Positions 2,210 to 60,293 of a stretch of 64,000 bases of DNA are shown here, piece by piece. Origin of the DNA: Narcine bancroftii (lineage: Eukaryota); the NCBI RefSeq assembly GCF_036971445.1, contig NC_091470.1, positions 80,786,001-80,850,000 of the forward strand. The letters are read 5' to 3'. The notes beneath the pieces were generated by a model. That model saw only the letters and a program-made list of their open reading frames with translations. It searched no databases and was not told the DNA's origin. The translations under genes were made by a program, and so were the position numbers. Each line of letters starts with the position of its first letter. The stretch's first letter is position 1.

Positions 2210-2673
2210 TTATTCAAGTTCCAATGGCTCGAGTGTCTTCACTTTGGAATTTCCTTGCATCAACTCGGCTACATTACCATTGGCTGTTGTATTCAATGTG
2301 CTCATCTTATACACGTTGATCGATTTGTCCTCTACCTGGTGAACGAGTTGGCAGCTGTAATACCGAGGCAAAAGCTTCTCATGGAAGTTCGCGGAGTGGT
2401 TTCCTTTCCGTAACTTTGACGAGAGGTAGATGATAGTTGGCCCTTGAGATAAGTGTAACAAAGTCTTTAACAGCAAGGGATAGGTGAGAGAGGTGTACAC
2501 AATATCTGATCCCAGGATAAAGTCGTAATTGGTGGGAAATTTCATGTGATCCTTGCCCCAGGCTAAGGCACAGACTTTTGACCGATGTCTAGAATGAGAG
2601 GGGATATTTATGGAGACATTGTATTCTATTTGGCTCAAGACATTCTCTTGGTCTGTCATAGTAACCTCTCCAC
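2210..2673 (-). CDS. Copy A last coding exon
   Basis: Acceptor ttttgacag|GTGGAGAG (phase 1); GGEVTMTD...FILGSDIVY...; TAA stop at 2210-2212. Confidence 0.92.
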
Positions 2674-5600
2674 CTGTCAAAAACAAAAGAGAATAGGATA
2701 CAATTCATCCTTGTAACAAATAAATCAAGCATCAAGTTGTATTAACCCTTTGGACTCCATGTCCTGGTTTTCAGGGAAGACCAGCATATGCTCAGTCTCC
2801 CAGTTTTCTGAGACTGGTTTAAAACACAACCAGCAGCTGGTTTGTACTGTAATTTACCCATGGATCGAGTCTGGAGTATATTTTATGGTTAAAAATGGCC
2901 AGAGTCCAAAGAGTTAATTTAACAGAGGTTGAGCGGGATAATCCCTTACAGAATAAATTGATACTATTTATTGATGTCTGTGTCCTACAGAATAGGATGG
3001 CTGAATCTGTGGGCATCAACCAATTGTTCGCATAGAAATTGGCTGTACTTTGCAACAAAAGAGTAGGATACCATTTATTCAAATAGAATCGGTTTGTATG
3101 CGGAGAGCAATCAGCTTACAGGATATCACATTTTGGATTCAATGCACAACCTATAAACATCCATATAACTTCAGAACATTTTGTGTTGAAATTGTAAAAA
3201 AAAATTGCAGAGCCACCTAGAAAGAGTTGGTATGTGAGAAAACTGGTGACCATCACAAAGGATATTGACTTCTTACTTCATGCTCAACAATTAAGGGTGG
3301 CACAGCAGGGACAGCCACTTCCTCATAGTGACAAAGAGTGGTGTTTAATCCTGACCTTGGGTGCTGGCTATGAGGAGTTTGCACATTCTCCATGTTGGTT
3401 TCCTCCCACATCCCAAAATCATGTGGATTGGTAGCTTAAGTGACTGCTGTAAATTGCAGTTGAATGGTTGAAGCTGGGGGTTGACTTGAAAAGAATTTGG
3501 GTAGAATAAACAGTTAGATTAATGTATGGTTGATGATCTGGGTGGACCTGATGGAACGAAAGTTCTGATTCCTGTCTCTCCATGACTTTGTGTCTTCACA
3601 AATTTCAATTAATGCATCTGAGGATCAAGCTAAAATAATTCTAGAGTATAAATAACCTGAGTAACTTATAGTTACTGAAATATCCAAACTTCAATAGTTG
3701 ATATGCTGCCATCGTCAGCATACATCATAAATCTTTCACAAATTATCTTCCCTCGGCGGCATCCAGTTACTGTTGCATAGTTTAACCCTGTAGGTCAATG
3801 TGGAGTTCAATTGCAACAGGTGATAATGCCACCAAGACCCTTGAATCTGTGGGAAGAACCAGCATCTGTGTCTCTAACTACCTTGTTTAGATAAAAAATA
3901 AATTGACATGGTGCAAAATACAATGGGATGGAATCCCTCCTTGAAATGATCTTGAAGGTACCTGGGCAAATGTGTTCTTTGGAATTCAGCACCTATCAGA
4001 TCTTGTGGATGGTGATAATAATTCAAATATTCACACTATGATTGGATTTTAAAATTTAAAACCAGTCCATTATGAACCTTGTAATTAAATTCCATGAACT
4101 TAGTATTTAATACTCACAATATGGAAAACAATTTATTTAAGTACAGATATTATATCCCCCAGCTGTTCTTGTCACACATTAATTTTAAATAGGTTGCAAG
4201 TGTAGCATTACTGTTGGTGAAACTGATAACTGCTTACTTGAAAATTGGAATTCAAAAGGCGATCCAAAAAACAATCGAAGCTTTCAAAGTTACATAAATT
4301 CCATAAGTGTTCAGTTCAACANNNNNNNNNNNNNNNNNNNNNNNNNNNNNNNNNNNNNNNNNNNNNNNNNNNNNNNNNNNNNNNNNNNNNNNNNNNNNNN
4401 NNNNNNNNNNNNNNNNNNNNNNNNNNNNNNNNNNNNNNNNNNNNNNNNNNNNNNNNNNNNNNNNNNNNNNNNNNNNNNNNNNNNNNNNNNNNNNNNNNNN
4501 NNNNNNNNNNNNNNNNNNNTTTCTGTCTTTTTCTCCAATGTTGCATCTCACACACAACAGGTTCCTTGCAAAGAGGAGCTTGTCTTTAGAACTAGTGAGG
4601 AACTTGTAGTTACTGAAATACCCAAACTTCAATAGTTGAAATGCAATACATTTGCAATTGTACAATTCACCTATTGTAGGTGATCTTCTGAGAACCATTT
4701 TCCAACCTGACCACCATTTCTCTTGATGGTCTTAATGTCCATATATCTATCGACCTCTGTTTTGAATTAATACAATGAACAAGCCTCTACATTGTTCTTG
4801 GGTAGAGAATTTCAAAGGTTCATCATGCTTTGAGTGAAGAAATTTTTCCTCATCACAATATAAAATAGTCAGTGCTTTAGTTTAGATTGATGTTCAAGAC
4901 CAACAACACATCAGCCCAGGGAGACATACTTCCATCCCTAAATGGAAATCTAAAAGTTCAGATGTTGAAAATCTGAAATTGAAAATGCTAGGCACACAAT
5001 TAGCATTATTTGTTGGGTTCTGCCAAATCCACTCTGCCATTTACAGATAACTTTTTACTGCACACAAGTTATGAGGAAGCCTTGTCTACCTGAAGTGATT
5101 CTACAAATGCCACCTTACCTGCTGAGTGTTTCCAGCACATGTTATTTCCATCTCTCTGCATCTGACCCATCACACCTTTAAGAATGCTATAAATTTCAAT
5201 GAAATCTCCTCTTCATCTTCCCCAAGGATACAATCCTGATCAACTCAACCTCTCACCTAGTAAACCTGCTATCCCTGGAACCCATCTGGTGAATCTTCAC
5301 TGTATTCCCTCCAAGGCAAGTGCATTGTTTACATAATGAGACCAAAGATCTGCACAATACTTCAGGCACAATCTCAAGGCCCCATGAAAATGGAGCAAGA
5401 CTTCCTTACTCCTGTCACAATCCATGTGGAAGCAGCACTAATTGCTTTGTAATTATGTCACCTGAGACAAAATTCTAATATAATCAACTTCCTGCTTTAG
5501 ATATGTTGCACTGGTTACATTTCTTTAGAGGTTTGGAGTGACAGAAAGTTGCTAAAAATAAACACTGGCAAGAAAATGTCTCTATATTTGGAGAAAATTA

Positions 5601-58127: not shown

Positions 58128-58259
58128 ATGAGCCACGCTGAGGATAACAGCCTCTCGTTCCACAAGGAAGAGCAGCAAATCGAGTTCAGTGGACACCTTT
58201 TGAAGATCACGACGTTTAAGGGAGCGTATCTTGGCGTTTCTGCTTTTGTTTGGGAACCC
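58128..58259 (+). CDS. Copy C first coding exon
   Basis: GAGGATGAG start; MSHAED...[27 protein letters not shown]|gtgagt. Confidence 0.88.
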
Positions 58260-60293
58260 GTGAGTCTAACAGCCTGTAACAAATGCATTGTGTGAATTTG
58301 CACCTATTTTGTAACTTACTGGCAGAGATGTACGGAATGTTTATCTGCACACAGTTCAATACGATCGACAACCTTGCCCACGCAATTTCATCCTGGTTAC
58401 GGTACTATTTACAGTATCATTTGTCCTTTCTACTGGAACCGGACCTGGCCTGAATATTGCTTCAAACAAAATCACTTCCCAGGAATGGGTAACCGGAACC
58501 CGGTACAGCGATACCGATCATTGCCTGCAAGTTCTGCACATCCTCCTCTCAACACACATTCATTTTCTCAATGGACTCTCAACTAACATATAGTTCACAT
58601 TGTCATCCCTTGCGGTCCCGCTCTCTCTGCCTTTCCTTCATGAACCACAAAATAGGTTAAATTTGCATCAGGTTCGCAACACTTTTGGACTCCGTACTCG
58701 TGTTTGAAGCGACATTTAGTCTGCGCCTGCTTCCAGTCGAAGGGATGAAACGAAAGTTGCCGTAACCGCAGGGGATAAGAATGAGGGAATAAAACTTTAG
58801 GGCAACGCCCGCTGGGATTCTGGGGAAGAACGAGAGCGAGGATTCTGTGATCTGGACTGAGCTGAGCACTGTATAATAACTGACCCGACCTGTTCTGGGG
58901 ACGCATCTCCCATCCAACCACCACATCTCTGCAGTTACATTCTGCAAGGATGAATTTCCTCCTTCATTCTTGCTGTCTCTGTATCTCAGAATCAGAATGT
59001 ATTGTCTTGAGCAAGTCACGATATTCCCCGCAACACAGTTCAAACATTTATATAAATCACCTTACAACAACACATTAAAATAGTGCTCGAAAAGTCAAAG
59101 TAAGGCAGTGTCTGTGGGTCATGGATCATTCAGGAATCTAAAGGCAGCGGGGAAGAAGATGACTTTGTGCCACTGGGTGCTCTTCAGTCACCTGTACCTT
59201 TTTCACGAGGTACCAGAGTGAAGACATGGTCTGGGTGGTGGGGGTCTTCTTTCAGATGTCCTCGATGTCCAACCCGCTGGAGTTCTTTTTGGATAAATAA
59301 CTTCAACAGAGAATGCCCAGATTACAACAAGGCGATCGATCATGCACAGGTTGAACGATGTTGAATCTGAATCAGATGTTGCCTTAAACAAAGTAACGTC
59401 TCGAGGCCTTCAACAGGCACCCAAGAGTCGTTAGCCCCGCCGCTACCACCACTACAATCACTTCCTTCCTTTCCCCAGAACCCACTCGATCAAAGCCACT
59501 CCAGACCAATTGTTAAAGGGGCCTTTTAACAATGGATCCACCCAAACTTTTCACCATCCCGTTCTCCCTGATGCTTCGCGAACTTTGCGACTGGATTAGT
59601 ATTAATGCGCGTGTACATGTGTGTGTGTTTTTTTTTCCTCCAGGGGCTTGTACTCTGTCGCTACTTCGAGAATGAAAAGATTAATTTTACAGGGAAGAAG
59701 ATGATTGAACTGGGCTCTGGAACGGGGATTGTGGGGATCTTGGCAGTGCTACTGGGTAAATTCTCGATTTGTCTGGCTCTTTGTCTTGTTAATCGGGATC
59801 TAATTCTGCGTAGATTTCACTTATGGCCAGAATTTTTACCATAAATCGTGGATCTAAGTAATAGCCATTGTCTGATTTGTCTCCCTCAGGCGGAGATGTC
59901 ACTCTAACGGACAGACCATGCGTTTTGGAGCAAATAGAGTACAACGTCTCTGCCAACATCCCACTCAGGTGCAGGCACCGTTCGAAAGTCAGTGCTCTCG
60001 CTTGGGGGACTGATCAGGACACCTATCCGTCCGACTTTGATTTCATTCTAGCGTCAGACGTTGTGTACAGCCCGACCCAGTTTCCAGACCTTTTACGAAC
60101 ACTTCTGCACCTTTGCAATGAGAAAACCACAATTTATATGTGTTCGAACATGGTGGCGAGAGAGGGAGCCATCAATTTTCACCAGGAACTCCTGCCGGAG
60201 CTGTTTAACAGCGAGTTAATTCACACATACCGAAGCAACTGTATTTACAAAATGACCAAAAAACAAACTCTGGCGAGAGGAATTAGTTTCTGA
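58128..60293 (+). CDS. EEF1AKMT3: EEF1AKMT3 (METTL21B)-like, copy C; join of 58128-58259, 59644-59755, 59890-60293; 215 aa
   Basis: 132+112+404=648 nt in frame with GT/AG sites; motifs [30 protein letters not shown]. Symbol denotes family membership. Confidence 0.9.
59644..59755 (+). CDS. Copy C middle coding exon (112 nt)
   Basis: ttcctccag|GGGCTTGTA...CTACTGG|gtaaat; [37 protein letters not shown]. Confidence 0.92.
59890..60293 (+). CDS. Copy C last coding exon
   Basis: ctccctcag|[18 protein letters not shown]...FILASDVVY...GISF*; preceding intron is only 134 nt. Confidence 0.92.

What the first reader, a model, noticed from the sequence alone, without database searches (positions are those of the whole stretch)
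2210..60293. Birth-and-death cluster of EEF1AKMT3/METTL21B-like lysine methyltransferases
Seen: three intact, clearly diverged paralogs share exon phases and a 112-nt middle exon, in mixed orientation, with two pseudogene pieces. No other host gene is visible. Known: mammalian EEF1AKMT3 is a single gene that methylates eEF1A Lys165 and lies next to METTL1 and TSFM, neither of which is seen here. Inference: this is a lineage-specific expansion with ongoing turnover, unexpected for a translation-factor modifier, and may be a distinct protein-methylation system in cartilaginous fishes.
Basis: partly seen in the sequence, partly recalled or inferred. Interest (0 to 1): 0.75.

Follow-up and report, generated by a model that had tools for sequence, protein, structure and literature searches.

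The report
Shark-ray family of retargeted methyltransferases
Sharks, rays and chimaeras carry up to 14 or more old, conserved copies of an enzyme gene that appears single in bony vertebrates, and these copies keep the methyl-transfer machinery but have rebuilt the predicted target-gripping loops, so they likely methylate proteins other than the translation factor that the original enzyme serves.

Summary
The window holds three intact three-exon genes (A-, B-, C+; GT-AG introns, phases 0 then 1, 112-nt middle exon) and two broken pieces. They match RefSeq 'EEF1A lysine methyltransferase 3-like' proteins labelled Narcine bancroftii. One sequencing run holds all four splice junctions of B and C.

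Trees place them inside EEF1AKMT3/METTL21B, in a chondrichthyan-only clade (at least 129 proteins, 22 species, up to 14 per species). This clade is sister to a canonical shark/ray copy, which three species annotate as a TSFM isoform.

The window's copies are not recent births. A, B and C each group with genes of other rays and sharks, and the pseudogenes are losses of genes intact in relatives. SAM and lysine-pocket residues are kept. The canonical N-terminal motif (43 of 49 vs 0 of 100) and canonical residues in the loops that grip substrate in METTL21D are replaced by subfamily-specific ones.

Best reading (0.6): retargeted protein-lysine methyltransferases, with substrates and activity untested. 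Ten literature searches found no description. Verdict: a new variant of a known kind, moderate interest.

The parts
2210..2673 (-). Gene A last coding exon (post-I, DxxY motif, C-terminal extension, TAA)
5831..5942 (-). Gene A 112-nt exon (motif I, ELGSGTG)
9982..10267 (-). Gene A exon with in-frame ATG at 10152; the frame stays open and conserved up to the acceptor at 10267
19023..19070 (-). Gene A upstream exon of RefSeq isoforms; ends in ATC where orthologs of 274 aa begin with Met
33612..33733 (-). Gene A upstream exon of RefSeq isoforms X1/X2 (not checked against reads)
36374..36523 (+). psi1: orphan first coding exon of subfamily D; 6-codon deletion in substrate loop 1, donor GT replaced by GG
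39897..40291 (-). Gene B last coding exon
41358..41469 (-). Gene B 112-nt exon
47400..47525 (-). Gene B first coding exon from the ATG (RefSeq X1 extends it to 47599 and adds an exon near 48121-48011)
52331..52678 (-). psi2: orphan last exon, closest to subfamily E; two frameshifts (near 52554 and 52414) and small in-frame deletions
57634..58259 (+). Gene C exon with ATG at 58128; spliced from an upstream exon ending at 54604
59644..59755 (+). Gene C 112-nt exon
59890..60293 (+). Gene C last coding exon

Best explanation
The window holds part of an old tandem family of EEF1AKMT3-derived genes of cartilaginous fishes whose products keep the SAM-binding and lysine-pocket residues but have replaced the canonical N-terminal motif and the residues of the predicted substrate loops, so they are likely protein-lysine methyltransferases retargeted to proteins other than eEF1A Lys165. 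Shown: gene structures, splicing of B and C, descent from EEF1AKMT3, age, a separate canonical copy in relatives, and the pattern of kept and replaced residues. Inferred: an early chondrichthyan duplicate left the TSFM locus and multiplied in tandem; the canonical copy kept the eEF1A job; each subfamily fixed its own substrate-docking surface and was then held by purifying selection; single lineages later lost members (two in this ray) or gained a few. Each enzyme would bind SAM through motif I, post-I Asp and the WG Trp, hold a target lysine in the Trp/DxxY channel, and choose its protein through three surrounding loops. Activity and substrates are untested.
For: Descent: the best solved match of C is human METTL21B (4QPN) by sequence (E 4e-54 vs 1e-35 for METTL21A) and by fold (AlphaFold pLDDT 90, TM 0.89). 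The 36-row tree gives EEF1AKMT3 clade 100/99, chondrichthyan clade 99/98, expanded clade 100/98, canonical shark/ray clade 96/83; larger trees agree. Size: 129 distinct proteins in 22 species after collapsing isoforms, e.g. Heptranchias 14 (12 on one scaffold), Heterodontus 10, Callorhinchus 9. The 41 bony-vertebrate rows among the 120 listed are from 41 different species. Catalytic core kept: W57, motif I, D104, W133, D151 and Y154 (human numbering via a bat ortholog) in 92-100% of 100 expanded proteins and in 3 of 3 window proteins. Recognition changed: the N-terminal FxDxY-type motif is in 43 of 49 canonical vs 0 of 100 expanded proteins; canonical L155, K181, E185 and H186 are kept in 0, 28, 4 and 2 of 100. 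In the METTL21D-p97 complex the substrate loop is held by the S2-H1 loop, motif II and the S7-H5 loop, with V38, Y148 and E174 among the contacts (PMC10339199); these align to V52, L155 and K181. Lost sites are enriched in these loops (6 of 16 vs 8 of 68, P 0.023), as are subfamily-fixed differences (7 of 19 vs 19 of 129, P 0.027). Re-constraint: shark-ray distances within subfamilies A, C and D (0.44, 0.39, 0.33) are like the canonical gene's (0.34), although root-to-tip paths are 3.6 times longer; B vs C dN/dS 0.13. Splicing: 4 of 4 predicted junctions of B and C are in contigs of run X1.
Against: There are no activity or substrate data. The loop enrichment is not significant against other coil positions (6 of 16 vs 3 of 19, P 0.14), and I named the loops after seeing the list of lost sites. 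No eEF1A complex of METTL21B appeared among the solved-structure hits, so the contact map is borrowed from METTL21D. Subfamilies A, G and I keep part of loop 3 (SK-R or SKM). No canonical copy turned up for Narcine, Callorhinchus or 9 other species; if it is truly absent there, some paralog may be doing the eEF1A job. Teleosts were barely sampled, so 'single copy in bony vertebrates' rests on the best 120 rows of two searches.
Confidence: 0.6

Rival explanations
1. The paralogs are still eEF1A Lys165 methyltransferases, divided by tissue, stress condition or eEF1A paralog (subfunction or dosage).
For: They are nested in EEF1AKMT3. Human Lys165 methylation is inducible and tissue-variable, and the site lies in a patch that differs between eEF1A1 and eEF1A2 (PMC5416902). 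No canonical copy was found for Narcine or the chimaera. Some subfamilies keep K181.
Against: Residues invariant from sturgeon to mammals and in the canonical shark copy are lost across the clade, and each subfamily has its own loop sequences. A dozen differently shaped enzymes for one conserved lysine is hard to explain. Eleven species keep the canonical copy alongside.
Confidence: 0.22
2. The family serves urea physiology: broad-specificity enzymes that methylate many lysines (shielding them from cyanate carbamylation or feeding methylamine pools), or that act on small amines.
For: The family's range matches a urea-retaining group; elasmobranchs hold over 300 mM urea, and urea carbamylates proteins (PMC11651341 passages). 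Loss of the N-terminal arm could open the site (inference).
Against: Subfamily-fixed loops point to distinct, specific targets. The DxxY/Trp lysine channel is unchanged. The coelacanth also retains urea (recalled) and shows one canonical protein. No direct evidence.
Confidence: 0.08
3. The copies are largely dispensable by-products of tandem duplication in a repeat-rich region, drifting towards loss.
For: Two of five members here are dead. Some clades (subfamily I, chimaera copies) have long branches. The region holds many transposon remnants.
Against: Orthologs are kept in sharks and rays at canonical-like distances, catalytic residues are nearly invariant, dN/dS is 0.13, and spliced forms exist.
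Confidence: 0.05
4. On the pseudogenes only: psi1 and psi2 are the two ends of one subfamily-D gene that was cut by an inversion carrying gene B, which would also explain the mixed orientation.
For: The order psi1(+, first exon), B(-), psi2(-, last exon), C(+) is what such an inversion gives, and the pieces are complementary. psi2 scores equally on D and E proteins (196.1 vs 196.5 bits), and psi2 with the ray D genes is not rejected (AU p 0.086).
Against: psi2 groups with skate subfamily E at 99/97 and shares its C-terminal end, while psi1 groups with ray D at 95/91. No convincing inverted repeat marks breakpoints.
Confidence: 0.25

Closest known systems
EEF1AKMT3 / METTL21B (eEF1A-KMT3; PDB 4QPN)
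   Same: Fold (TM 0.89, 46% identity for C), motif I, post-I, DxxY and Trp residues, tree position. Mammalian fragments that break at residues 58 and 96-97 fit the same two intron positions; three exons in the human gene is recalled.
   Different: Multi-copy tandem family away from the TSFM locus; N-terminal VFP..LFxDxY arm absent; loop residues invariant in EEF1AKMT3 replaced; motif I mostly ELGSGTG rather than ELGAGTG (89 of 100); about 3.6 times more change since the split.
Methyltransferase family 16 (PF10294): METTL21A, C, D/VCPKMT, E
   Same: Pfam hit above cut-off, DxxY motif, seven-beta-strand fold with N-terminal hairpin. The family has repeatedly changed protein substrate on this scaffold (PMC10238732 passages).
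   Different: The window genes are not orthologs of these: METTL21A and METTL21C-like outgroups fall outside at 100/99. METTL21D and E were compared by sequence and fold scores (D) or not as named rows (E).
FAM86 / eEF2-KMT expansion in higher primates
   Same: Lineage-specific multiplication of a translation-factor methyltransferase, with pseudogenes (PMC10238732 passage).
   Different: FAM86 has 16 sequences, mostly pseudogenes, spread by segmental duplication in primates. Here most copies are intact, predate the shark-ray split and are held by purifying selection.

Membership tests
MTF16 / PF10294 seven-beta-strand methyltransferases | Pfam Methyltransf_16 score above the curated cut-off | tested here: met
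   Last exons of A, B, C score 57.9, 51.2, 60.5 bits vs 21
MTF16 / PF10294 seven-beta-strand methyltransferases | Motif I, post-I acid, motif II and D/E-x-x-Y/F motif (PMC5416902) | tested here: met
   3 of 3 window proteins; 92-100% of 100 expanded proteins
MTF16 / PF10294 seven-beta-strand methyltransferases | Seven-stranded class I fold | tested here: met
   Model of C, pLDDT 90.4, best match 4QPN at TM 0.89; A and B not folded
MTF16 / PF10294 seven-beta-strand methyltransferases | SAM-dependent methylation of a protein lysine | not testable with these tools
   Needs an enzyme assay
EEF1AKMT3 / METTL21B lineage (descent) | Groups with EEF1AKMT3 to the exclusion of METTL21A and METTL21C | tested here: met
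   100/99; 97-98 SH-aLRT
Canonical EEF1AKMT3 ortholog (eEF1A-KMT3 function) | Member of the canonical shark/ray clade | tested here: not met
   A, B, C lie in the sister clade (100/98); the canonical clade is separate (96/83)
Canonical EEF1AKMT3 ortholog (eEF1A-KMT3 function) | N-terminal VFP..LFxDxY arm and loop residues L155, K181-M-R-x-E-H186 (defined here from the alignment, not from a paper) | tested here: not met
   0 of 100 have the motif; A keeps K181 and R183 only, B and C keep none
Canonical EEF1AKMT3 ortholog (eEF1A-KMT3 function) | Position beside TSFM/METTL1 (human order recalled) | tested here: not met
   No such gene in the ORF scan. The canonical proteins of two Mobula species and Pristiophorus are annotated as TSFM isoforms, and in M. 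hypostoma they lie on a different chromosome from the expanded copies. Flanks beyond the window could not be read.
Canonical EEF1AKMT3 ortholog (eEF1A-KMT3 function) | Methylates eEF1A Lys165 | not testable with these tools
   No assay; no eEF1A sequence was fetched
METTL21A, C, D as separate 1:1 orthologs | Each window gene closest to a different METTL21 member | tested here: not met
   C's best solved match is METTL21B; A, B and C all nest in the EEF1AKMT3 clade

The most novel reading that the evidence does not exclude
Cartilaginous fishes run a private lysine-methylation code: a dozen ancient EEF1AKMT3-derived writers, each aimed at a different protein target that no other vertebrate methylates this way, possibly tied to life with very high urea. 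The family would then be a natural library showing which loop changes reprogram a seven-beta-strand methyltransferase.
Probability: 0.3. Interest if true: 0.75.

Novelty: new variant of a known kind. Interest (0 to 1): 0.52.

Why it matters
Seven-beta-strand lysine methyltransferases are mostly one enzyme for one site, and a review counts 16 in humans (PMC10238732). Some sharks have almost that many from this one gene. How these enzymes choose their substrates is known from few complexes. A set of orthologous subfamilies that share a scaffold and differ at fixed loop positions makes the question testable by loop swaps and labelling. It also marks a conserved, unexplored piece of cartilaginous-fish cell biology. 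The genes are already in RefSeq under one automatic name, and gene-family expansions are common, which caps the surprise until a substrate is found.

Tried and rejected
No whole genome is held, so copy number in this species, flanking synteny and a canonical copy in Narcine could not be checked directly.

Recent, species-specific duplication: rejected (AU tests; synonymous saturation). Separate METTL21 orthologs: rejected.

Expression: no RNA holder listed; the three runs are marked RNA by guess and come from one study. Runs X2 and X3 show none of the junctions, but contigs show presence only, so tissue restriction is not claimed. Gene A lay outside the 20 kb laid.

The careful mixture-model tree of 76 rows did not finish; its quick version was used. 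Placement of psi1 in the full tree was unsupported and was redone on exon 1 alone, where 5 of 21 rows were left out for too few columns. A looser N-terminal pattern gave 36 of 49 vs 0 of 100. Rows dropped before the first tree: 7 of 156 (fragments and isoforms).

Rfam: 0 matches. No inverted repeat marks inversion breakpoints. dN/dS site models could not be run: there are no coding sequences for the orthologs.

Literature: searches found no paper joining this gene with sharks or rays (one irrelevant listing); searches listed nothing on the expansion by title or abstract start. PMC8662637 does not mention sharks, Callorhinchus or Chondrichthyes in its main text. PMC11979771 has no methyltransferase mention in its main text, and its supplement, which may hold tissue expression of these genes, could not be read. 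One search fetched an unrelated paper. Four look-ups in earlier findings gave nothing relevant.
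Full report
Observation. Six-frame and tblastn searches and exon assembly give three intact genes. A (-, 10152-9982/5942-5831/2673-2210) encodes 248 aa, B (-, 47525-47400/41469-41358/40291-39897) 210 aa and C (+, 58128-58259/59644-59755/59890-60293) 215 aa. All six introns are GT-AG, phases 0 then 1, and the middle exon is 112 nt in each. The proteins are 54-66% identical. Two broken pieces lie between them: psi1 (+, 36374-36523), a first coding exon with a 6-codon deletion and a dead donor, and psi2 (-, 52678-52331), a last exon with two frameshifts. 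A Pfam scan of 150 of 197 long ORFs found only these genes and transposon remnants above cut-off; Rfam found nothing. The window has 1241 N in seven runs.

Identity. B and C are identical to RefSeq proteins XP_069773338 and XP_069773339, and A to the last 248 residues of XP_069773335. All three are named 'EEF1A lysine methyltransferase 3-like [Narcine bancroftii]'. RefSeq isoforms add 5' exons to A as far as about 34,090, so A spans half the window and its true start codon is uncertain. Contigs of one of three laid runs (X1, marked RNA by guess) bridge all four predicted junctions of B and C and a further GT-AG junction, 54604-57634, in C's 5' region. X1 was found with C's sequence, so B's junctions are the independent part.

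Descent. C's best solved match is human METTL21B by sequence (E 4e-54, against 1e-35 for METTL21A) and by fold. With METTL21A and METTL21C-like outgroups named through, the careful 36-row tree gives: EEF1AKMT3 100/99; within it all chondrichthyan proteins 99/98; a canonical shark/ray clade 96/83; an expanded clade 100/98 that holds A, B and C. Trees of 76-149 rows agree. Canonical proteins were seen in 11 of 22 chondrichthyan species. Three are annotated as isoforms of mitochondrial elongation factor Ts, which implies overlap with TSFM, and in Mobula hypostoma that protein is on a 73-Mb chromosome while the expanded copies are on a 256-Mb one. None was seen for Narcine or Callorhinchus, which these searches cannot turn into absence.

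Size and age. Of 44 hits to A's last exon, 43 are named chondrichthyan proteins and 1 is unnamed. After collapsing isoforms, the expanded clade holds 129 proteins from 22 species: Heptranchias 14, Scyliorhinus torazame 11, Pristiophorus 10, Heterodontus 10, Mustelus 9, Callorhinchus 9. These are lower bounds, since only the best 120 rows of two searches were listed; a few may be alternative models of one locus. Most copies of a species share one scaffold length, which suggests one main cluster. The 41 bony-vertebrate rows come from 41 species. A groups with skate, sawfish, Mobula and shark genes, C likewise, and B with stingray genes. Forcing A+B+C or B+C together is rejected (AU p 1e-39 and 7e-5). 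Synonymous sites are saturated for A and near saturation for B vs C (dS 1.9, dN/dS 0.13). psi1 belongs to subfamily D (95/91) and psi2 to E (99/97), both intact in other rays. So this window records old births and recent deaths. Younger duplicates exist in other species, for example Pristiophorus and Heptranchias. One alternative stays open: psi1 and psi2 may be one gene cut by an inversion that carried B (AU p 0.086).

Mechanism. The SAM and lysine-pocket residues (W57, motif I, D104, W133, D151, Y154, in human numbering through a bat ortholog) are kept in 92-100% of 100 expanded proteins and in A, B and C. In contrast, the N-terminal FxDxY-type motif is found in 43 of 49 canonical proteins and 0 of 100 expanded ones. 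Within the core, 14 of 84 canonical-conserved sites are lost, among them Q44, V52, A53, L155, T158, K181, M182, E185 and H186. In the METTL21D-p97 structure three loops surround the substrate loop, and V38, Y148 and E174 are contacts (PMC10339199, sections 8 and 10 and passages); these align to V52, L155 and K181. T158 aligns to a SAM contact (S151), not a substrate contact. With loops taken from the model of C, lost sites are enriched there (6 of 16 vs 8 of 68, P 0.023), but not significantly against other coils (3 of 19, P 0.14), and the test was not blind. Subfamilies carry their own fixed loop residues (7 of 19 vs 19 of 129 sites, P 0.027); for example, after DxxY the canonical proteins have L-x-x-T, A has TSL and C has NP. 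Shark-ray distances inside subfamilies match the canonical gene's, although total paths are 3.6 times longer: fast change after duplication, then constraint. I infer retargeted protein-lysine methyltransferases (0.6). Rivals are continued eEF1A-K165 methylation by divided labour (0.22), a broad or small-molecule role tied to urea (0.08) and drift (0.05).

What is known. Human METTL21B methylates eEF1A Lys165, is inducible and is limited to vertebrates (PMC5416902, abstract and passages). MTF16 members act on varied proteins, and FAM86 shows a mostly pseudogenic primate expansion (PMC10238732, passages). A survey of METTL evolution does not mention sharks and leaves birth-and-death to future work (PMC8662637, passages). 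[quoted passage not shown] Searches found no description of this expansion. The library lacks most subscription papers, and the catshark expression supplement was unreadable.

Verdict. A real, ancient, conserved chondrichthyan family derived from EEF1AKMT3. Its members belong to MTF16 and to the EEF1AKMT3 lineage but are not canonical orthologs. The genes are annotated automatically and apparently undescribed as a family. New variant of a known kind; interest 0.52.

Noticed in passing
P0157 (KAL7852739.1) and P0159, P0162, P0168, P0170, P0185, P0196: Proteins with two to six tandem METTL21-family domains. P0157 is from a piranha and a cluster mate is named METTL21C. Either real multi-domain enzymes or fused models of a tandem array: a parallel expansion on another METTL21 branch.
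   Followed up: partly
window 19023-19028 and 9982-10267 (-): Orthologs of gene A of 274 aa start at a Met where this ray has ATC, so A here starts either downstream (10152) or in further upstream exons. A also has Lys at the position of the acidic residue after W57 (2 of 100 expanded proteins), which in METTL21D is the key substrate salt bridge.
   Followed up: partly
window 55225-55302 (+): RefSeq isoform X2 of gene C begins in a repeat with look-alikes at 7893-8114 and 34563-34650; a possible exonised SINE-like element or a model artefact. Its junction was not among the rows shown.
   Followed up: no
window 35960-36100: Two CCAAT-type boxes and a TATA-like element upstream of psi1 in a CpG-richer region, head-to-head with the farthest 5' exons of gene A; a shared promoter is possible.
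   Followed up: no
window 22659-24101 (-), 43318-43715: LINE reverse-transcriptase frame of 481 aa (PF00078) inside gene A's 5' intron, with a 97% identical inverted 3' piece in gene B's intron; the repeat is very deep in all three runs laid.
   Followed up: no
window 24972-28757 (+): Broken L1-like pieces (two PF00078 hits) followed by an open 421-aa frame that looks like a LINE ORF1 (my recognition; no Pfam hit).
   Followed up: no
window 44190-46304 (-): LTR-retroelement remnant (integrase H2C2 and CCHC zinc knuckle hits, several stops) in gene B's first intron.
   Followed up: no
window 13674-16287: 15-nt G+C-rich satellite, over 100 copies, broken by five N runs.
   Followed up: no
P0142, P0340, P0342, P0357; P0123, P0369: EEF1AKMT3 proteins are listed for kiwi, rhea, emu and tinamou although PMC5416902 calls the gene absent in birds. 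The coelacanth protein P0123 and isoform X1 of gene A carry METTL21A names but belong to the EEF1AKMT3 lineage.
   Followed up: partly
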